The notes beneath the pieces were generated by a model. That model was not told the DNA's origin and did not search any database. It worked only from the letters and a program-made list of their open reading frames with translations. From IMG/VR virus record IMGVR_UViG_2939127364_000002: a DNA stretch of 42,479 nucleotides. One strand, 5' to 3'. Origin of the DNA: a virus (lineage: Duplodnaviria; Heunggongvirae; Uroviricota; Caudoviricetes). A program made the translations under genes and the position numbers. Each line of letters starts with the position of its first letter. Within the stretch, counting starts at the first letter, position 1. Shown in pieces: positions 4,184 through 11,045 of the stretch.

Positions 4184-4411
4184 TCATAATTCACTCTTCA
4201 ATACTTCCAGCTTACTAATCGCCGAAAGATATCCGCGCTGATAGGGCATCATCATTCCTTCGAGCTTGCCACTTCTTAACTCCTCCCTGAGCAATTGTAT
4301 TGCTTGATCAATAACCTCTGCCTTAGCGTCCTTTATGGCTTGCTTGCGGGGCTTTGCTTTCTGCTTTGGCAGATTTCTCAAGCATGATGGAATGTATGTC
4401 TGATTCATCAC
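4184..4411 (-). CDS. Hypothetical early protein (75 aa) immediately downstream of N
   Basis: Track ORF abutting the N stop codon; no family recognised. Confidence 0.5.
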   Translation of the reverse strand: MMNQTYIPSCLRNLPKQKAKPRKQAIKDAKAEVIDQAIQLLREELRSGKLEGMMMPYQRGYLSAISKLEVLKSEL

Positions 4412-4774
4412 TTACCTGGCTGTCAGTTGTTTTGATTTCCGGTATCCTGCCGCGTAAATGGCTACGTTTGGAAGACATACACCAGTTTCTGGTTGCTTAT
4501 GTCCAAACTCATTCGCGTACACAATGGCTGCTCTCTCCAGATTGCGTCTGTATTCTTTCTGTTGCCAGATCACGTCCTGTGCCATGAACTTAATTGGCTT
4601 AGCGTCTTCTATGCGCTCAGGCGTTTCGTGAGTACCTTTAGCCTGAATCTGCGCTCTGCTTAGAGTAGGGCGGTGTAATACTTCTGAGCTTGCCGTAATC
4701 TCATTCTGGAGCGCTGCACGACGCTCACGACGACGACCTGATGCTGAGCCATTGAAAGCTGTTCTGCGTGTCAT
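4412..4774 (-). CDS. N: N-like transcription antiterminator
   Basis: Arginine-rich N-terminus ...GRRRERRAALQ... resembles the lambda N arginine-rich motif; first gene left of the oL region; AGGAGG 7 nt upstream of ATG. Confidence 0.65.
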   Translation of the reverse strand: MTRRTAFNGSASGRRRERRAALQNEITASSEVLHRPTLSRAQIQAKGTHETPERIEDAKPIKFMAQDVIWQQKEYRRNLERAAIVYANEFGHKQPETGVCLPNVAIYAAGYRKSKQLTAR

Positions 4775-4877
4775 AGTGACCTCCTGATGAACTTTGGTGA
4801 TGCAATGGCCGGTGCTTATCTTCGGCTTGCCTCAACGGGCTGCATTTCATCGCATCCCAAAGTTCACTTTGGTTATT

Positions 4878-4891
4878 AGGCTTTTCAGCCT
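4878..4891 (-). promoter_or_regulatory. Candidate nutL boxB-like hairpin
   Basis: On the leftward transcript: CTACG then AGGCU-GAAA-AGCCU; same design as the hairpin at 7461..7474. Confidence 0.4.
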
Positions 4892-4961
4892 CGTAGATTC
4901 ATCTCTGAATCGTTGTATATTCACCGCCCTGGTGAGTAGTGCGTCCTGCTGATGGGTAAAC

Positions 4962-5005
4962 TTTATCGAAATGATAAATCAATGGCAATAGCAAAATGAT
5001 AAATT
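4962..5005. promoter_or_regulatory. oL/pL operator region
   Basis: Two copies of ATGATAAAT (4972..4980, 4996..5004) plus TTTATCG at 4962..4968; the same motif recurs at oR. Confidence 0.5.
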
Positions 5006-5181
5006 CCTTTGGTTTTCAAATATCGTATTGATTCTTATGGTGTTTTATTTTGTTGTAGGAATCCGACAGGATAAATAAAGAGATTTGAGGGAGATCTGGA
5101 TTGCGTGGTTTAGTGAGTTGTATCTGTTTATTTTTCAACAAATACAATTGGTTATGTGTTTTTAGGTGGGGGGATCGTGAG

Positions 5182-5209
5182 GCAAAGAAAACCCGGCTCT
5201 GTGGCCGGG
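5182..5209 (-). terminator. Rho-independent terminator closing the cI operon
   Basis: Minus-strand hairpin cccggc-(6 nt loop)-gccggg followed by TTTTCTTTG, directly after the stop at 5218. Confidence 0.6.
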
Positions 5210-5217
5210 TTAATGCG

Positions 5218-5838
5218 TTAATGCTGGGGAGTGATTTTTTTGTTGTCTGTTGGCTGGGTATTTTGTGGCGGCGCTTGCAAAGTGGAAGGCTGTTGCAAAG
5301 GTGCGTGGTCTGACTTTAAAGCTGATACCAGCCCGGGAATCGCAACTATTACAGCGATAATGACACTAAAAATGGCTAATCGTATAGAAATACCCGACTG
5401 AACACCACTAATTGCGGTATTAACCCCTGTTATTTGTCCTTGAATTCCTTCGAATCTCCCATTAATTGCTTTTATATCGCCAGCAGCGCTATCCATCTTT
5501 CCATCGATCTTGGACGATAGAGAGTTTATGGCTGCATTAAGTGATGCAAATTGGACATTAACGCTTTCACGAGATAGAGCCATGTCAGCCCTAATGGAAG
5601 AAGCAATAGACTCCATCTCTGCTTTATTAGCAGCTAAGCGAGCATCAAGTTCCTCTCTGCTGATCGTTCCCACTTCTTCCTCCGTTTGTGGCGGTTTTAT
5701 GTAATTATTTTGCACCTTGGTGGGAGAATTATCAAATTCAGCCTCAAAATAGGAACCGCCAACAACCTTCAACCTCCGGCTTTCAGATATGTTGGTGTCT
5801 TGCTTTCCATGATTATTTAAATTGCTGTCGTCACTCAT
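5218..5838 (-). CDS. Membrane-anchored coiled-coil protein of unknown function (206 aa), distal gene of the cI operon
   Basis: Polar N-terminus, heptad-like central region, single hydrophobic segment IRLAIFSVIIAVIVAIPGLVSAL near the C-terminus, Pro/Gln-rich tail; ATGA overlap with the upstream gene. Confidence 0.6.
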   Translation of the reverse strand: MSDDSNLNNHGKQDTNISESRRLKVVGGSYFEAEFDNSPTKVQNNYIKPPQTEEEVGTISREELDARLAANKAEMESIASSIRADMALSRESVNVQFASLNAAINSLSSKIDGKMDSAAGDIKAINGRFEGIQGQITGVNTAISGVQSGISIRLAIFSVIIAVIVAIPGLVSALKSDHAPLQQPSTLQAPPQNTQPTDNKKITPQH

Positions 5839-6269
5839 AATAGCTCTACGGTGAAAAATGATTCATTTTTATGAAGTTCATTTTTAGGGTCTTCATTATC
5901 CTGCAATATCCCTATAACACTATACAGCCCTTTAGCTGGGACCCTAATTTCTTTCAATGTTACTATTACCTGTCCGCCAACCCCTGTTTCAAAATGGCTA
6001 TCTTTCGTATCGATGAAAAGTGAAACTGATTCCGAAGAGCCGTCAGGGAATTGAATTTCCTCACCTTTTTTTATAATTAGGTGCGCGGGGATTACCATAA
6101 TACCCAAATTATATCTTGAATTTGGTTTCAACCCGATCATACCAACCCTGAAATCAATTGATAGCCGCGCAGGAAATTCATTGCATGTAAAATTAAGCGT
6201 CGGTTGGTTGGGTTCTTCGCTGCTATCAAATGGGGTTATAAAAGATATTCTTTCTAAATTAAGTGCCAT
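5835..6269 (-). CDS. Hypothetical soluble protein (about 144 aa) between cI and the membrane protein
   Basis: Start placed at ATG 6269 (MALNLERISF...) with AGGAG 5 nt upstream; track start 6323 has no good RBS; no family recognised. Confidence 0.55.
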   Translation of the reverse strand: MALNLERISFITPFDSSEEPNQPTLNFTCNEFPARLSIDFRVGMIGLKPNSRYNLGIMVIPAHLIIKKGEEIQFPDGSSESVSLFIDTKDSHFETGVGGQVIVTLKEIRVPAKGLYSVIGILQDNEDPKNELHKNESFFTVELL

Positions 6270-6370
6270 AAATTCTCCTGCATCGCTGTATGCTCTACGA
6301 GCATCTCGGCGACTTATCATCACCCAAACGTCTCTTCAGGCCACTGGCTACCAGCTATGTGACGATGAAG

Positions 6371-7075
6371 TCACGAATTTTTCAGCCACTCCCTTGCCTC
6401 GATGTCATCCAGATGGCGAGATTGCTTCAGAATACCAGCCACATACTCCACCTTTGCTACTTGATGATAAGGCAACGTTATAGGCCTGTGGTCCTGGTTA
6501 ATGCTTGTAAATTGGTATTCTCCATCTCTGTCATAGCCAAGAACCTTAATCATGTTGTGTCCTTCAACGGTTCTGACAAACACCTCATCACCCGGGAATA
6601 CTTTGGTGTTAGGCTCAATGAGTACATATTCTCCTGATTTTATTCTGGGCCACATGCTGTCTCCTTTCACACGAAGACCAAAGGCATCTGGATCATCGCT
6701 ATAAATTTTGAGCCACCCATCGCGCTCTTCGGTCATCTCGATGGCACCATCAACACCAAGAATTGCCTCACCAACCACGCGCACTAACCCTTTTCTTACC
6801 TGACCGACAAAAGTTAAAGAATCTGAGCATGATGCAATTGGTGTTACATCATGCACCAAATCAAGCCACCCATTAGGTAACCCAAGTGCGGCTTCAAATT
6901 TTCTTGCTAGTTTATCCCCTATGTTTCGAGTGCTTTTTTCACCGGAGACTTGCGTGAGTTGAGAAGGGCTAACCCCAAGCTTATCGGCAAAGCTTGCATT
7001 AGTGTTACCCGCGATTTTTTTATGCTCATCTAGCAAAAACGCTAGATTTGATTTGCGAATATCTTTGTTTTCCAT
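6371..7075 (-). CDS. cI: CI-type prophage repressor (HTH plus S24 LexA-like autopeptidase domain)
   Basis: N-terminal HTH ...SFADKLGVSPSQLTQV...; C-terminal ...GDSMWP... serine-lysine dyad signature; divergent from cro across the operator region. Confidence 0.9.
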   Translation of the reverse strand: MENKDIRKSNLAFLLDEHKKIAGNTNASFADKLGVSPSQLTQVSGEKSTRNIGDKLARKFEAALGLPNGWLDLVHDVTPIASCSDSLTFVGQVRKGLVRVVGEAILGVDGAIEMTEERDGWLKIYSDDPDAFGLRVKGDSMWPRIKSGEYVLIEPNTKVFPGDEVFVRTVEGHNMIKVLGYDRDGEYQFTSINQDHRPITLPYHQVAKVEYVAGILKQSRHLDDIEAREWLKNS

Positions 7076-7100
7076 CCCACAATTTTCCCTCTATTTAGCA

Positions 7101-7180
7101 AATGGATAAATACGCAATATGATAAATTTACATTGCGGTTGATTTATCAAAATGGTAAAGTTATTCTGTATGATAAACGG
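7101..7180. promoter_or_regulatory. oR/pRM/pR operator region
   Basis: TGATAAA at 7120..7126 and 7171..7177, inverted TTTATCA at 7143..7149, GGATAAA at 7104..7110; lies between divergent cI and cro. Confidence 0.55.
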
Positions 7181-7188
7181 AGGCACTA

Positions 7189-7422
7189 ATGAGTAATGAA
7201 CTACTACGCTGGCGAAAAGAGGCTTCTAGTGAGGAATGGAAGCGACTCGCCGCATTAGCGAAAACTTCAGTTGGCTATCTTGACCAGATTGCATATGGAT
7301 TTCGAAGAGCTTCCCCTGATAAAGCGAATGCAATCGAAGAAGCTACTCGTAATTTCACGGGTTATAAACCTGTGAAAAAGGAAAACCTGGTGTTCGTATC
7401 GCGTAGAGCATCGGCAGCATAA
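7189..7422 (+). CDS. cro: Cro-like repressor (77 aa)
   Basis: Small basic protein, first rightward gene after the operators; GGAGG 6 nt upstream of ATG. Confidence 0.75.
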   Translation: MSNELLRWRKEASSEEWKRLAALAKTSVGYLDQIAYGFRRASPDKANAIEEATRNFTGYKPVKKENLVFVSRRASAA

Positions 7423-7460
7423 GTAACACCGCTATTTTCACAATGGACATTCGTCCTACG

Positions 7461-7474
7461 TCGCTGAAAAGCGA
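7461..7474 (+). promoter_or_regulatory. Candidate nutR boxB-like hairpin
   Basis: CTACG then UCGCU-GAAA-AGCGA between cro and cII; a second hairpin atgcgt/acgcat follows at 7505..7520. Confidence 0.4.
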
Positions 7475-7558
7475 GCCCCAAGATATCTGACCAACTAAGG
7501 CCATATGCGTTTCCACGCATACCTTTCAACTAACTATTCACTATTGGAAAATTAACAA

Positions 7559-7855
7559 ATGACACAAGCAAGTTACAGCAAGCCAACACAGCGAGAAATT
7601 GATCGCGCTGAAACTGATTTACTCATCAACCTGTCAACGCTTACCCAGCGCGGTCTGGCAAAGATGATTGGCTGTCATGAATCGAAGATAAGCAGAACGG
7701 ACTGGAGATTTATTGCTTCGGTCTTGTGTGCTTTCGGAATGGCATCAGACATCAGTCCGATTAGCAGGGCTTTTAAGTATGCGCTTGATGAAATCACAAA
7801 GAAAAAATCCCCGGCCGCCACCGAGGATTTTAAGCAAATTGATATGCAATTCTGA
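7559..7855 (+). CDS. cII: CII-like transcriptional activator
   Basis: HTH ...LTQRGLAKMIGCHESKISR...; C-terminus KKKSPAATEDFKQIDMQF parallels lambda CII KKRPAATERSEQIQMEF. Confidence 0.8.
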   Translation: MTQASYSKPTQREIDRAETDLLINLSTLTQRGLAKMIGCHESKISRTDWRFIASVLCAFGMASDISPISRAFKYALDEITKKKSPAATEDFKQIDMQF

Positions 7856-7887
7856 GGGAATTACTGGATCAATCCACAGGAGTAATT

Positions 7888-8049
7888 ATGACAAAACGTC
7901 GTAAGAAATACCAGGAAAAAGAAGAGATTCGACACCCTGATTCACCTGAGGGATTAGTGGTAGCCGCAGCAAATAACAGGGCGTTCGCAGAGCGCCTTGT
8001 TGGTGTTTACAGACTAGCCAAAGCAGGAGTGAAACATGGGCGTCGTTAA
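7888..8049 (+). CDS. Hypothetical small basic protein (53 aa)
   Basis: MTKRRKKYQEKEEIRHPDSPEGLVVAAANN... with AGGAG 6 nt upstream; not in the track. Confidence 0.3.
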   Translation: MTKRRKKYQEKEEIRHPDSPEGLVVAAANNRAFAERLVGVYRLAKAGVKHGRR

Positions 8050-8098
8050 ATTAGCTGATTACAGGCATAACCCTGTACAACATCAGGAGGCATCCAGT

Positions 8099-8926
8099 AT
8101 GGGGTATGTCTCTATACACCGCCAGTTTATGGACAGCAGGCTCTATAAGGACTCTCAGGCAGTACATCTTTGGCTTCACTTAATCCTCAAGGCTAATCAC
8201 GAATCTACTGTCGTCAATACGGATATCGGTCCGATAACTGTTGATCGCGGTCAGATGATAACTGGACGCCCGTCGCTGGTCAGAGAAACATTCATCCCCG
8301 ACAACAAAGTTCGGAGCTTATTACGGACTTTTGAGTCGAAAGGTATGCTTAATATTTGCTCGATGGGGAAGAAATTTAGCCTGTTTACAATCGTTAAATA
8401 TGACGATTTTCAGGCAAAAAATTGTCCAACGGTTGTCCAACGGTTGTCCAACGCAAACACCAGTAATGGCGCGGCTCTCAGCGGAGATTGTCCAACGGTT
8501 GTCCAACGGTTGTCCATAAACAATAATATAAATAATATCTCTAATACTGACGTATTAGAGAGTGCCACAGCAGACAAAAAGTCTGACAAGAAAAAACCTT
8601 CCGTTAGCTGTCAGGATGTTGTCGATGCTTACCACGAAATCCTTCCTGAAGCGCCAAGAATCCGCGCACTGAATGACAAGCGTAAAAACCAGATCCGAAC
8701 GTTCTGGCGCAAAGCCGGAGTGATAACCCGCCAGCTTGACGGGCATGGGTTCACGATGCAGGACTGGAGAAATTATTTGAGCTACGTTGGCGAAAATTGC
8801 CGATGGATGTTCGAAGAGCGCCCAAACCATCAACGCGGAACCGTCTGGCACAAAAAGGGATTTGATTTCCTGCTTAACGATAATACCTACCTGAAAGTTC
8901 GTGAGGGTGAACACGATGACCGATAA
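8099..8926 (+). CDS. Replication initiator, O-like
   Basis: Start placed at ATG 8099 (MGYVSIHRQF...) with AGGAGG RBS instead of track start 8036; ori-like iterons lie inside the gene; followed by the helicase gene. Confidence 0.7.
   Translation: MGYVSIHRQFMDSRLYKDSQAVHLWLHLILKANHESTVVNTDIGPITVDRGQMITGRPSLVRETFIPDNKVRSLLRTFESKGMLNICSMGKKFSLFTIVKYDDFQAKNCPTVVQRLSNANTSNGAALSGDCPTVVQRLSINNNINNISNTDVLESATADKKSDKKKPSVSCQDVVDAYHEILPEAPRIRALNDKRKNQIRTFWRKAGVITRQLDGHGFTMQDWRNYLSYVGENCRWMFEERPNHQRGTVWHKKGFDFLLNDNTYLKVREGEHDDR
8422..8517. repeat. Replication origin iterons: two clusters of three tandem 11-bp repeats (TTGTCCAACGG)
   Basis: Copies at 8422..8454 and 8488..8517 (last copy partial), then AT-rich stretch 8515..8560; all inside the O-like gene. 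Confidence 0.7.
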
Positions 8927-10352
8927 TTTTTATGCGCCGCCCCATAGCATCGAGGCAGAGCAGGCGGTGATTGGTGGATTGCTTCTGGATGATGACAGCA
9001 GTGAGCGCGTCCAGAAAGTTCTGGCGATGCTGAAGCCCGATTCATTTTACAGCCGACCACACAAAATCCTTTTCGAAGAAATAACCAGAATGCACCGTGA
9101 GCAAAAGCCAGTAGATGGCCTGACGCTTTTCGATGAACTGGAGCGTAAATCGTTAACGGTGTCTGTTGGCGGTTTTGCTTATATCGCTGAGATCGCAAAG
9201 AACACGCCAAGCGCAGCAAACATCGTTGCCTATGCAATGCAGGTTCGTGAAACCGCAATGGAACGCTACGCCATCAACCGCATGACTGAAGCGACGGAAT
9301 TGCTCTATTCCCGCAACGGAATGACTGCAACGCAGAAGTACGAAGCTATTCAGTCGATTTTCACGCAACTGACAGACCATGCAAAAACCGGATCGCGTCG
9401 CGGCCTTCGCTCATTTGGTGAGGTCATGGAAGACTGGGTTAGCGACCTTGAGAAGCGATTTGACCCGTCAGGCGAACAACGAGGAATGAGCACAGGGATC
9501 CCATCGCTGGACAGGATGCTGTCACCGAAAGGCCTGGTGAAAGGCTCTCTGTTTGTCATTGGCGCTCGCCCTAAGATGGGGAAAACGACGCTATACAGCC
9601 AGATGGCAATCAACTGCGCAGTGCATGAGAAAAAGCCCGCTCTGATGTTCAGCCTTGAAATGCCCGGTGACCAGATACTGGAAAAACTGGTAGGACAGAA
9701 GTCAGGTGTTAACCCGAATATTTTTTACCTTCCGGCGACAAATGACGCTGATGACGGCTATCAGGGTGATTACGATGGTGACTTCAACAGGGCGATCGAA
9801 ACAGCCAATCGCTTGAGTGAAATCGACCTGCTTTACATCGACGACACGCCGGGATTATCTCTGGCTCAAATCGTCAGCGAAAGCCGTCGAATCAAGCGAG
9901 AAAAAGGATGTGTTGGCATGATTCTGGTCGATTACCTGACACTAATGACCGCTGAGAAGGCCGATCGCAACGACCTTGCTTACGGCATGATCACCAAAGG
10001 ACTGAAGAACCTTGCCAAAGAGCTTGATTGCGTTGTTGTGCTTCTGACACAGCTTAACCGCGCACTGGAAAGCCGAACCAATAAACGCCCATTACCAAGT
10101 GACTCACGAGATACAGGGCAGATTGAACAGGATTGCGATTATTGGGTGGGGATCCATCGTGAAGGCGCTTTTGATGACAGTGTTCCACCTGGTGAAACCG
10201 AACTAATCCTTCGTCTCAATCGTCATGGCAATACCGGCACGGTGTATTGCATTCAGGCAAATGGCGCTATTTATGACACAGACCAACAGTCTGCTGAAAT
10301 GCGCCGACGTGAACGCGAGGAACCGCAGTCCAAGAAGAAAGGAGGATTCTGA
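8916..10352 (+). CDS. DnaB-type replicative DNA helicase
   Basis: N-terminus ...FYAPPHSIEAEQAVIGGLLLD...; Walker A GARPKMGKTT; start at ATG 8916 (GAGGGTG RBS) overlapping the O-like gene end. Confidence 0.9.
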   Translation: MTDNFYAPPHSIEAEQAVIGGLLLDDDSSERVQKVLAMLKPDSFYSRPHKILFEEITRMHREQKPVDGLTLFDELERKSLTVSVGGFAYIAEIAKNTPSAANIVAYAMQVRETAMERYAINRMTEATELLYSRNGMTATQKYEAIQSIFTQLTDHAKTGSRRGLRSFGEVMEDWVSDLEKRFDPSGEQRGMSTGIPSLDRMLSPKGLVKGSLFVIGARPKMGKTTLYSQMAINCAVHEKKPALMFSLEMPGDQILEKLVGQKSGVNPNIFYLPATNDADDGYQGDYDGDFNRAIETANRLSEIDLLYIDDTPGLSLAQIVSESRRIKREKGCVGMILVDYLTLMTAEKADRNDLAYGMITKGLKNLAKELDCVVVLLTQLNRALESRTNKRPLPSDSRDTGQIEQDCDYWVGIHREGAFDDSVPPGETELILRLNRHGNTGTVYCIQANGAIYDTDQQSAEMRRREREEPQSKKKGGF

Positions 10353-10455
10353 TGACCATCTACATCACTGAGCTGATAACAGGGTTATCGTTACTAATGG
10401 TTCTTACTGTATATATTATTAAGTATATTCTTTATGCGAATAAAAAAACTAATTG
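10351..10455 (+). CDS. Possible 34-aa hydrophobic peptide
   Basis: MTIYITELITGLSLLMVLTVYIIKYILYANKKTN; AAAGGAGGA 6 nt upstream; ATG overlaps the helicase stop (TGATGA); speculative. Confidence 0.3.
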
Positions 10456-11045
10456 ATCACGATGAGCTTCTGTCAACATTATCATATGACTCAGAAACAG
10501 GAATATTTAAATGGCTAAAAACAAATTCAGTAGTAAGAGTAAAAGGTAGTATTGCTGGAGGTGTTAGTGGTGGTTATATATGCATTAGCATAAATAATGT
10601 TTTGTATTATGCGCATAGACTTGCTTGGTTCTATGTATACAAAAAATGGCCTCCTAAGTTTATTGATCATGTAAATGGGAACAGACTTGACAATAGGATT
10701 TCAAATCTAAGACTGGCAACAGAAGAGCAGAATGCAAGAAACATTGTAGGGAATAGATTAAACACATCCGGTGCAATTGGAGTGTCTTGGTATAAGCCAA
10801 CTGGCAGGTGGAAGTCTTATGTTGGTTATAAAAATAAGACAATATCGTTAGGGTATTTCGACAGCAAAGAAGATGCAGCATTCATAGCAGCACTAGCAAG
10901 AAAGAAACTATATGGAACTTATGCGAGTAAAGCACTTAATTGCGAGCATGAGCTTTTATCTCAATTTAATAATGATGAGGATAAACTTGCGGAATATCTT
11001 AAGGAAAAATCTAAAAGGACTCGAAAGCGTGTTAAAAACAGATAA
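10434..11045 (+). CDS. HNH endonuclease with AP2 DNA-binding domain (homing-endonuclease-like)
   Basis: ...YAHRLAWFYVYKKWPPKFIDHVNGNRLDNRISNLRLATEEQNARN... (HNH) and ...GVSWYKPTGRWKSYVGYKNKTISLGYF... (AP2-like); gene is visibly AT-rich. Confidence 0.75.
   Translation: MRIKKLIDHDELLSTLSYDSETGIFKWLKTNSVVRVKGSIAGGVSGGYICISINNVLYYAHRLAWFYVYKKWPPKFIDHVNGNRLDNRISNLRLATEEQNARNIVGNRLNTSGAIGVSWYKPTGRWKSYVGYKNKTISLGYFDSKEDAAFIAALARKKLYGTYASKALNCEHELLSQFNNDEDKLAEYLKEKSKRTRKRVKNR

What the first reader, a model, noticed from the sequence alone, without database searches (positions are those of the whole stretch)
7456..7520. Candidate nutR and downstream hairpin between cro and cII
This is the partner of the nutL candidate: CTACG plus the GAAA-loop hairpin at 7461..7474, followed by a 6-bp stem hairpin (atgcgt/acgcat) at 7505..7520. 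That is the position where lambda has nutR and tR1.
Basis: partly seen in the sequence, partly recalled or inferred. Interest (0 to 1): 0.4.

Follow-up and report, generated by a model that had tools for sequence, protein, structure and literature searches.

The report
Phage nutR antitermination site plus tR1
This is the ordinary rightward N-utilisation site (nutR) and adjoining tR1 terminator region of a lambda-like phage, already annotated or tested in close relatives; its one unusual trait is a four-base GAAA loop on the N-binding hairpin, always paired with a matching change in the phage's N protein.

Summary
Both hairpins are at the stated coordinates. The region lies between cro (7189-7422) and cII (7559-7855) of a lambdoid phage and is about 97% identical to the cro-cII spacer of phage H-19B, whose nutR/tR1 has been dissected experimentally. 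The same boxB and the same downstream hairpin are annotated in phage VT2-Sakai as "putative N-utilization rightward" and "putative rho dependent terminator for pR transcript".

The layout is: degenerate boxA 7430-7438; spacer hairpin 7445-7456; invariant UACG linker 7457-7460; boxB 7461-7474; a C-rich, G-poor tract; tR1 hairpin 7504-7521. "CTACG" is not boxA. It is the last base of the spacer stem plus the linker.

The extra result concerns the boxB loop. Here it is a GAAA tetraloop at both nutR and nutL, whereas H-19B and P22 have GACAA. In 94 related loci, loop type tracked the N arginine-rich motif with no discordant locus: GRRRERRAALQ-type with GAAA, RSRRRERLKAKALANGVLAR-type with GACAA. 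Compensatory changes support the stems.

The site is ordinary in kind. The tetraloop/N pairing looks like an untested specificity variant.

The parts
7430..7438 (+). Degenerate boxA of nutR (CGCTATTTT).
   Evidence: It is homologous to the CGCTCTTTT annotated as nutR boxA in mEp234. It matches 7 of 9 bases of the rrn boxA UGCUCUUUA. Its fifth base is A, the same base as in the lambda boxA16 sequence (cgcuAuua), which lowers N activity in lambda (PMC2724277). The motif is absent from several relatives that keep the rest of the site.
7439..7444 (+). Conserved CACAAT (ACAAY) immediately 5' of the spacer hairpin.
   Evidence: ACAA(C/T)G precedes the spacer stem in every nutR and nutL variant listed, including VT2-Sakai nutL, whose stem sequence is unrelated.
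7445..7456 (+). Spacer hairpin GGAC-AUUC-GUCC. This is the H-19B-type spacer dyad, called the 'reducer' in my recollection of Neely & Friedman 2000.
   Evidence: It appears in the minimum-energy fold. The third pair occurs as A-U, G-C, C-G and G.U in relatives, and no sequence breaks it. H-19B nutR is described as having two hairpins (PMC3526286).
7457..7460 (+). Invariant UACG linker between the spacer hairpin and boxB.
   Evidence: It is present at every nutL and nutR site detected in the surveyed loci, across three N body types. The survey regex itself required TACG, so this shows that no locus lacked such a site where the contig reached, not an independent test of invariance.
7461..7474 (+). 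boxB of nutR: UCGCU-GAAA-AGCGA, the N-binding hairpin with a GNRA tetraloop.
   Evidence: The homologous site is annotated as boxB in mEp234, and the identical sequence ends the annotated putative nutR of VT2-Sakai. Pair 2 covaries C-G to A-U in L090. Loop type tracks the N arginine-rich motif with no exception.
7475..7503 (+). C-rich, G-poor tract downstream of boxB; candidate rutB equivalent.
   Evidence: It is 34% C and 17% G. The C/G ratio runs 1.4-2.5 in 60-nt windows from 7400 to 7580, against about 0.9 for the whole window. Lambda rutB occupies the same position.
7504..7521 (+). tR1 hairpin UAUGCGU-UUCC-ACGCAUA (7 bp).
   Evidence: The identical sequence is annotated as a putative Rho-dependent terminator in VT2-Sakai. 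Sequence-distinct hairpins sit at the same place in five flank types, in lambda and in P22. No T run follows it.
7522..7534 (+). CCTTTCAACTAAC tail after the hairpin; likely pause and release zone.
   Evidence: Lambda has ATTCAATCAATTG and P22 has ACAACTAACTATT in the same position after their hairpins. That RNA 3' ends fall here is inferred, not shown.
4878..4911 (-). nutL partner: spacer hairpin GAUUCA-GAGA-UGAAUC (4911-4896), UACG linker (4895-4892), boxB AGGCU-GAAA-AGCCU (4891-4878).
   Evidence: The outer boxB pair covaries among relatives (A-U, C-G, U-A). The VT2-Sakai nutL spacer stem is GUCGA/UCGAC, unrelated in sequence but in the same place.
4412..4774 (-). N gene, the cognate antiterminator: 120 aa with arginine-rich motif GRRRERRAALQNE.
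   Evidence: Pfam N_peptide, E = 3.5e-20. It matches H-19B N almost exactly outside roughly residues 6-28. There the motif is replaced and is 7 residues shorter.
7095..7123 (+). pR-like promoter that would transcribe cro, nutR and cII.
   Evidence: This is a consensus match only: TTAGCA, 17-nt spacer, TATGAT. Its position corresponds to pR in the homologous records.

Best explanation
The interval is the nutR site of a lambdoid phage, followed by the tR1 region.

Proposed mechanism:
1. RNA polymerase starting at pR transcribes cro and then the nut RNA. That RNA consists of a degenerate boxA, ACAAU, a 4-bp spacer hairpin, the UACG linker, and boxB (a 5-bp stem closed by U-A, with a GAAA loop).
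2. The arginine-rich N-terminus of the phage's own N protein (GRRRERRAALQ) binds the GNRA-fold loop of boxB.
3. NusA binds the spacer, and the N-Nus complex stays attached to the polymerase.
4. Without N, Rho loads on the C-rich, G-poor RNA flanking boxB. It then releases the transcript at pause sites around and just after the 7504-7521 hairpin, before cII. This is tR1.
5. With N bound, polymerase reads through tR1 and later terminators.
6. The same N acts at the nutL copy (4878-4911, minus strand).

This phage and its relatives form a specificity class in which boxB carries a plain GAAA tetraloop rather than the GACAA pentaloop of H-19B and P22, and the N arginine-rich motif has changed in step.

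What is shown: sequence, position, homology, stem covariation, and the loop/motif association.
What is inferred: N binding, Rho dependence, and the location of RNA 3' ends.
For: **Context and chance**
- Gene order is N, cI, cro, cII, with Pfam hits for N and CII.
- The motif occurs only at the two expected sites; 0.02 matches are expected by chance.

**Homology to characterised or annotated sites**
- The spacer is about 97% identical to the cro-cII spacer of H-19B, BP-4795 and mEp506.
- H-19B nutR/tR1 is used as an N-dependent antitermination site with an overlapping Rho-dependent terminator. There, N plus NusA protect boxB and the spacer, and Rho protects the spacer (PMC3526286).
- The mEp234 record annotates the homologous boxA and boxB.
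- VT2-Sakai annotates the identical GAAA boxB and the identical hairpin as putative nutR and putative Rho-dependent terminator.

**Loop and N motif**
- Fifteen loci (the window included) have a short-motif N. They span four N body lineages and five nutR flank types. All have GAAA at nutL, and also at nutR wherever the contig reaches it.
- Every locus with a complete long-motif N (nearly 80) has GACAA at each nut site its contig reaches. No locus is discordant.
- Within the single H-19B-type flank, the loop follows the N type, not the flank.

**Stems**
- All 81 scored cells are paired.
- Two pairs show compensatory changes.
- The slid-register controls pair in only 31-49% of cells.
- The nutL spacer stem is replaced wholesale in VT2-Sakai yet keeps its position.

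**Terminator region**
- The C/G ratio is 1.4-2.5 across the region.
- A hairpin followed by a CAAC/UAAC-type tail sits at the same place in lambda, P22 and five flank types.
- Two single-base variants of the hairpin (C to T in L015 and in L085) keep a G.U pair only in the rightward RNA.
Against: - No experiment exists for the GAAA class. Binding of this N to a tetraloop boxB is inferred.
- boxA is degenerate. Its fifth base is the same as in the lambda boxA16 mutation, and nutL has no convincing boxA. If this phage needed NusB and NusE as lambda does, the site would look weak.
- Fold energy of the region is not significantly better than shuffled sequence (z = -1.81).
- N, its motif and nutL are tightly linked, so part of the loop/motif association is shared descent. 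The independent weight comes from nutR, which lies 2.7 kb or more away across a mosaic immunity region.
- The role of the downstream hairpin in termination is not established, even by my reading of the lambda literature.
Confidence: 0.87

Rival explanations
1. The 7505-7520 hairpin is a Rho-independent (intrinsic) terminator that stops pR transcripts before cII.
For: It is a stable 7-bp stem with four G-C pairs and a tetraloop. It lies where a terminator is expected.
Against: Only three T's follow the stem (ACCTTTCAAC). The terminator scan of 4300-8100 did not list it, although it found the oop-like and timm-like terminators nearby. The identical sequence is annotated as Rho-dependent in VT2-Sakai. 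H-19B tR1 is treated as a Rho-dependent terminator in vitro (PMC3526286).
Confidence: 0.04
2. The downstream hairpin mainly serves something other than termination. Candidates are cII mRNA stability or translation control, since it ends 37 nt before the cII start codon, and a role in the antisense pRE transcript or in the DNA.
For: A hairpin is conserved at a roughly fixed distance upstream of the cII/c1 start in seven sequence types. Being palindromic, it could also fold in the leftward pRE transcript, whose CII-binding site lies at 7568-7581.
Against: Two natural single-base variants keep pairing as G.U only in the rightward RNA and would be A.C mismatches in the leftward RNA. The hairpin sits inside the region annotated or used as tR1 in relatives. 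This reading does not exclude a pause or termination role.
Confidence: 0.12
3. The GAAA boxB is a decayed or inactive nut site caused by a one-base deletion in a GACAA loop, and the phage does not depend on it.
For: The window's nutR differs from the H-19B type mainly by the missing C. From memory, lambda work reported that a tetraloop boxB binds N but does not support full complex assembly.
Against: The same tetraloop is present at nutL and nutR in 15 loci from several N lineages and flank types. It always accompanies the matching motif, and the stems keep compensatory changes. It is also the form found in the widespread VT2-Sakai-type Stx2 phages. That pattern indicates selection, not decay.
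Confidence: 0.03
4. The hairpins are chance inverted repeats with no function.
For: The fold z-score is only -1.81.
Against: The motif occurs only at the two expected sites against 0.02 expected by chance. Covariation, conservation and published work on the homologous H-19B site all point the other way.
Confidence: 0.01

Closest known systems
Phage H-19B nutR/tR1 (AF034975; Neely & Friedman 2000; the Sen laboratory papers PMC3526286 and PMC4499122)
   Same: The sequence from the cro stop to the cII start is nearly identical. Shared features are the boxA position, the spacer hairpin GGAC-AUUC-GUCC, the UACG linker, the boxB stem UCGCU/AGCGA, the downstream tract and the hairpin. The N protein matches almost exactly outside the arginine-rich motif. 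nutL is homologous as well.
   Different: The boxB loop is GAAA here and GACAA in H-19B, at both nut sites. The N motif is GSASGRRRERRAA-LQNEITA here and GNSRSRRRERLKAKALANGVLAREEAI in H-19B, which is 7 residues longer. The outer two pairs of the nutL boxB stem also differ.
Phage VT2-Sakai (AP000422): annotated 'putative N-utilization rightward' and 'putative rho dependent terminator for pR transcript'
   Same: The nutR boxB (TCGCTGAAAAGCGA), the downstream tract and the hairpin TATGCGTTTCCACGCATACCTTTCAA are identical. nutL also has a GAAA tetraloop. The N motif is of the same type, ASRRRARRANLQSQ.
   Different: VT2-Sakai N is a 90-aa protein only about 42% identical overall. Its nutL spacer hairpin has an unrelated stem (GUCGA/UCGAC). 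Its boxA is closer to consensus (CGCTCTTTG; nutL GGCTCTTTAAACAA). These annotations are predictions, not experiments.
Phage lambda nutR-tR1 (NC_001416: rutA, nutR, rutB annotated)
   Same: The order is the same: cro stop, boxA and spacer (rutA), boxB with a U-A closing pair and a GNRA-fold loop, a C-rich G-poor rutB, a hairpin (GTATGCA-TTTATT-TGCATAC) with an ATTCAATCAA tail, then cII. The N motifs share RRRERRA and a Q three residues later.
   Different: Lambda boxB has the pentaloop GAAAA (GAAGA at nutL), whose fourth base is extruded (PMC12027372). Lambda has no spacer hairpin and a 9-nt spacer, and its boxA is required. Lambda N has Trp18 where this N has Ile26. The N bodies are unrelated.
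Phage P22 nut sites and gene 24 protein (NC_002371)
   Same: The C-terminal part of the N protein is homologous (...AAGHRKSKQITAR). The P22 nutL boxB GCGCUGACAAAGCGC equals the H-19B nutL boxB. A hairpin (GCGCAU...AUGCGC) with an ACAACUAAC tail precedes c1.
   Different: P22 has GACAA loops, no spacer hairpin, a good boxA (GCTCTTTA), and a different motif (TRRHERRRKLAIERD).

Membership tests
Lambdoid N-utilisation (nut) site | Lies in the early rightward transcript between cro and cII, with a partner in the leftward transcript upstream of N. | tested here: met
   ORF map and Pfam hits. The motif occurs only at 7457-7472 (+) and 4880-4895 (-). Promoter-like sites lie upstream of each.
Lambdoid N-utilisation (nut) site | boxB: a short hairpin whose loop adopts a GNRA fold, closed by a U-A pair. 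| tested here: met
   UCGCU-GAAA-AGCGA. The stem is 100% paired in relatives, with compensatory changes. The loop is a true tetraloop rather than the usual pentaloop.
Lambdoid N-utilisation (nut) site | boxA (CGCUCUU(U)A) 5' of boxB. | tested here: inconclusive
   nutR has CGCUAUUUU, a 7-of-9 match. nutL has only CGCACUACU, which aligns with the 5' end of the lambda pL transcript rather than with lambda boxA. Several relatives lack boxA altogether.
Lambdoid N-utilisation (nut) site | [quoted passage not shown] | tested here: met
   Pfam N_peptide, E = 3.5e-20. Motif GRRRERRAALQ.
Lambdoid N-utilisation (nut) site | N binds boxB RNA and makes RNA polymerase terminator-resistant. | not testable with these tools
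   Requires binding and read-through assays.
H-19B-type NUT (spacer stem-loop) | [quoted passage not shown] | tested here: met
   GGAC-AUUC-GUCC at nutR and GAUUCA-GAGA-UGAAUC at nutL. Pair types A-U, G-C, C-G and G.U all occur.
H-19B-type NUT (spacer stem-loop) | GACAA pentaloop boxB cognate to the H-19B N motif (12-RSRRRER-18...). | tested here: not met
   The loop is GAAA at both sites and the motif is replaced. The site works like an H-19B NUT but is not predicted to be interchangeable with it.
Rho-dependent terminator tR1 | C-rich, G-poor rut RNA flanking boxB. | tested here: met
   The C/G ratio is 1.4-2.5 across 7400-7580. The tract 7475-7558 is 27% C and 12% G, close to the lambda equivalent at 24% C and 12% G.
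Rho-dependent terminator tR1 | Homology to a region shown to terminate Rho-dependently. | tested here: met
   Near-identity to the H-19B spacer, whose nutR/tR1 gives Rho-dependent termination zones in vitro (PMC3526286).
Rho-dependent terminator tR1 | Rho-dependent RNA 3' ends upstream of cII, suppressed by N. | not testable with these tools
   Needs in vitro transcription with and without Rho, or 3'-end mapping.
Intrinsic (Rho-independent) terminator | G+C-rich stem followed directly by a run of U. | tested here: not met
   It was not reported by the terminator scan. The tail is ACCTTTCAAC.

The most novel reading that the evidence does not exclude
The GAAA-tetraloop boxB together with the short lambda-like motif (RRRxRRAxLQ) may define a separate, experimentally untested N/nut specificity class that does not cross-react with H-19B or P22 (GACAA).

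If so, it would be a natural case in which the extruded loop nucleotide of pentaloop boxBs is dispensable for assembling a working N antitermination complex. The class spreads by modular exchange among N bodies: H-19B-like, Salmonella-phage-like and VT2-Sakai-like.

I found no description of it in the held literature. That library omits most of the subscription journals where it would have appeared.
Probability: 0.4. Interest if true: 0.45.

Novelty: new member of a known kind. Interest (0 to 1): 0.25.

Why it matters
As a nutR/tR1 site it adds nothing new. It confirms that this phage controls delayed-early genes as lambda and H-19B do.

The tetraloop/motif pairing has modest wider value:
- It is a natural matched pair for studying how arginine-rich peptides tell a GNRA tetraloop from GNRA-like pentaloops.
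- It bears on whether the extruded loop base matters for NusA-dependent assembly.
- It predicts which lambdoid phages can cross-activate each other's early operons. These include the Stx2 phages of the VT2-Sakai type, which share the tetraloop.

Tried and rejected
- **Rfam** (E-value threshold, 4300-8100): no nut, boxB or oop family. The only hits were two sub-threshold chance matches elsewhere.
- **Fold energy alone**: z = -1.81, not decisive.
- **Intrinsic-terminator reading** of the 7505-7520 hairpin: rejected because there is no T run.
- **CTACG as a boxA-like element**: rejected. The C belongs to the spacer stem, and boxA lies 17 nt further upstream.
- **The annotated 'nutL boxA' CGCACTACT** of mEp234-type phages: doubtful. 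It aligns with the first bases of the lambda pL transcript, not with lambda boxA.
- **A phage record with the same N and nutL module**: none above 91% identity in the phage collection. Only 2 of 5,426 complete E. coli genomes cover at least 80% of it.
- **Literature searches for a described natural GAAA-tetraloop boxB**: nothing found. Cocozaki et al. 2008 (PMC2446750) is not held, and Neely & Friedman 2000 did not come up in any search of the held library.
- **Pfam and PADLOC on the two ORFs at the rexAB position**: no significant family.

Full report
**Observation**

- CTACG is at 7456-7460.
- TCGCT-GAAA-AGCGA is at 7461-7474.
- ATGCGT-TTCC-ACGCAT is at 7505-7520, and T7504/A7521 extend it to 7 bp.
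- The partner on the minus strand is TACG (4895-4892) followed by AGGCT-GAAA-AGCCT (4891-4878).

The core TACGNNGCTGAAAAGC occurs exactly twice in the window, at these two places. Shuffles predict 0.02 matches.

Folding 7423-7535 as RNA gives three hairpins: 7445-7456, 7461-7474 and 7504-7521. The energy is only 1.8 SD better than shuffled sequence. The case therefore rests on context and comparison, not on thermodynamics.

**Context**

The neighbourhood is a lambdoid immunity region:
- N, 4412-4774 minus strand (Pfam N_peptide, E = 3.5e-20)
- two unknown ORFs at the rexAB position
- an S24-type cI repressor, 6371-7075 minus strand
- cro, 7189-7422
- cII, 7559-7855 (Pfam Phage_CII)
- promoter-like sites where pL and pR should be

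The finding lies in the 136-nt cro-cII spacer.

**Homology to characterised sites**

The spacer aligns almost base for base with H-19B, BP-4795 and mEp506. The leader upstream of N does the same.

H-19B nutR/tR1 is a standard experimental system. Three points come from PMC3526286:
- It is a nut site overlapping a Rho-dependent terminator.
- N plus NusA protect boxB and the spacer, and Rho alone protects the spacer.

GenBank annotations agree:
- mEp234 (EF120460) marks CGCTCTTTT as nutR boxA and TCGCTGACAAAGCGA as boxB.
- VT2-Sakai (AP000422) marks CGCTCTTTGTAACAACGGACATTCGTCCTACGTCGCTGAA as "putative N-utilization rightward".
- VT2-Sakai also marks TATGCGTTTCCACGCATACCTTTCAA as "putative rho dependent terminator for pR transcript".

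The VT2-Sakai boxB and hairpin are identical to those in the window.

**Anatomy**

Reading 5' to 3':

| Coordinates | Element |
|---|---|
| 7430-7438 | boxA-like CGCTATTTT |
| 7439-7444 | CACAAT |
| 7445-7456 | spacer hairpin GGAC-AUUC-GUCC |
| 7457-7460 | UACG linker |
| 7461-7474 | boxB |
| 7475-7503 | C-rich, G-poor tract |
| 7504-7521 | tR1 hairpin |
| 7522-7534 | CCTTTCAACTAAC tail |
| 7559 | cII start |

It is not boxA.

ACAA(C/U)G before the spacer stem and UACG after it are invariant in every nutL and nutR variant I collected. This holds even in VT2-Sakai nutL, where the stem itself is replaced by GUCGA/UCGAC.

This fits the idea that the hairpin pulls the flanking bases together into a lambda-length spacer. 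Compare CACAAU|UACG with lambda's CACAUUCCA. I recall this from the abstract of Neely & Friedman 2000, which called the stem a "reducer". The paper did not come up in any search of the held library. [quoted passage not shown]

boxA is weak:
- Its fifth base is A, as in the lambda boxA16 sequence, a mutation that decreases N activity in lambda (PMC2724277).
- It is missing from several relatives that keep everything else.
- This agrees with my recollection that H-19B needs neither boxA nor NusB.

**Covariation**

I ran a count on nine distinct nutR cores.
- All 81 cells pair.
- The third pair of the spacer stem occurs as A-U, G-C, C-G and G.U.
- The second pair of boxB occurs as C-G and A-U.
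- Registers slid by 1-3 columns pair in only 31-49% of cells.

Across nutL and nutR, the outer boxB pair takes all four Watson-Crick forms. The inner GCU...AGC and the loop are fixed.

**The loop and the N protein**

The one real difference from H-19B is the boxB loop. It is GAAA here and GACAA in H-19B, at both nutR and nutL.

The N protein matches H-19B N almost exactly except around residues 6-28:
- H-19B: GNSRSRRRERLKAKALANGVLAREEAI
- this phage: GSASGRRRERRAA-LQNEITA, 7 residues shorter

I surveyed 94 further loci, taken from annotated phage records, IMG/VR and GTDB genomes.
- Every locus with the short motif has GAAA at nutL, and also at nutR wherever the contig reaches it. These are the window, L005-L012, L045, L086, L088, L090, and the VT2-Sakai-type L091 and L095.
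- Every locus with a complete long-motif N (nearly 80) has GACAA at each nut site its contig reaches.
- No locus is discordant.

N and nutL are adjacent and would be inherited together. nutR is different: it lies 2.7 kb or more away, across a mosaic immunity region. The short-motif class is found with five unrelated nutR flank types and four N body lineages. Within the single H-19B-type flank, the loop follows the N type. That is the pattern expected for a protein-RNA recognition pair.

The short motif shares RRRERRA, and a Q three residues later, with lambda N. Lambda N recognises a GNRA fold formed by a pentaloop whose fourth base is flipped out (PMC12027372).

P22 uses GACAA. From memory of Cai et al. 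1998, the third base is the one flipped out there. If so, removing the C from GACAA leaves the bare GNRA tetraloop seen here.

**tR1**

- The RNA from 7400 to 7580 has a C/G ratio of 1.4-2.5, against about 0.9 for the whole window.
- Its composition downstream of boxB matches the lambda region, where rutA and rutB are annotated on either side of boxB.
- The 7504-7521 hairpin has no U tract and is not an intrinsic terminator.
- Lambda has GTATGCA-TTTATT-TGCATAC plus ATTCAATCAA at the same place.
- P22 has GCGCAT-CAACGA-ATGCGC plus ACAACTAAC.
- Four further flank types carry sequence-unrelated hairpins there.
- Two natural single-base variants (L015, L085) keep a G.U pair only in the rightward RNA, which suggests the structure acts in the pR transcript.

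I infer that it is the pause and release hairpin of a Rho-dependent terminator, as annotated for VT2-Sakai. A role in cII mRNA translation or stability cannot be excluded.

**Verdict**

This is a real, functional-looking nutR with its tR1 region, of the H-19B type. It is ordinary in kind, and an identical copy is already annotated in VT2-Sakai.

Its distinguishing trait is the GAAA tetraloop paired with a matching N motif. This is a coherent specificity variant that I could not find described in the held literature. That library lacks most of the relevant journals, so I rate novelty modestly.

Noticed in passing
window 7804-7831 (minus strand): A strong terminator-like hairpin, AAAATCCTCGGTGGCGGCCGGGGATTTT followed by TTCTTT, lies antisense inside the 3' end of cII. 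P22 and lambda have the oop RNA terminator at this position; P22's is annotated.
   Followed up: partly
window 7568-7581: On the minus strand this reads TTGC-N6-TTGC (plus strand GCAAGTTACAGCAA), just inside the cII start. It matches the CII-binding site and pRE layout annotated in VT2-Sakai and mEp234.
   Followed up: partly
window 5218-6323 (minus strand), with a terminator-like site at 5190-5211: Two ORFs of 206 and 162 aa sit between cI and pL, at the position of lambda rexA/rexB. They have no significant Pfam or PADLOC family. A timm-like terminator follows them. They may be a lysogen-expressed moron or exclusion cassette.
   Followed up: partly
window 4857-4872 (minus strand): A third hairpin, CCAAAG-UGAA-CUUUGG, lies 5 nt downstream of the nutL boxB. 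It is conserved in all H-19B-type and Salmonella-type leaders and is replaced by CCACA-UAAGC-UGUGG in VT2-Sakai. Its function is unknown.
   Followed up: no
window 7430-7438: The nutR boxA reads CGCUAUUUU. Its C-to-A difference from consensus is the same base as in the lambda boxA16 mutation (PMC2724277). Relatives alternate between CGCTATTTT and CGCTCTTTT or lack boxA altogether.
   Followed up: partly
window 10434-11045: An ORF with HNH_3 and AP2 domains, a homing-endonuclease type, is inserted after the DnaB-like helicase gene (8901-10352).
   Followed up: no
L089 (Xanthomonas pisi contig, 394 bp); L091 and L092 (Segatella copri MAG contigs): Enterobacterial lambdoid N genes and nut sites appear on very short contigs assigned to unrelated organisms. 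This most likely reflects contamination or mis-binning in those assemblies.
   Followed up: no
window 4400-5010: This N and nutL module (H-19B-like body, short motif, GAAA boxB) is rare. No phage record exceeds 91% identity, and only 2 of 5,426 complete E. coli genomes cover at least 80% of it. The nearest relatives are in Salmonella and Enterobacter phages and in one IMG/VR contig (L008, 95% protein identity).
   Followed up: partly
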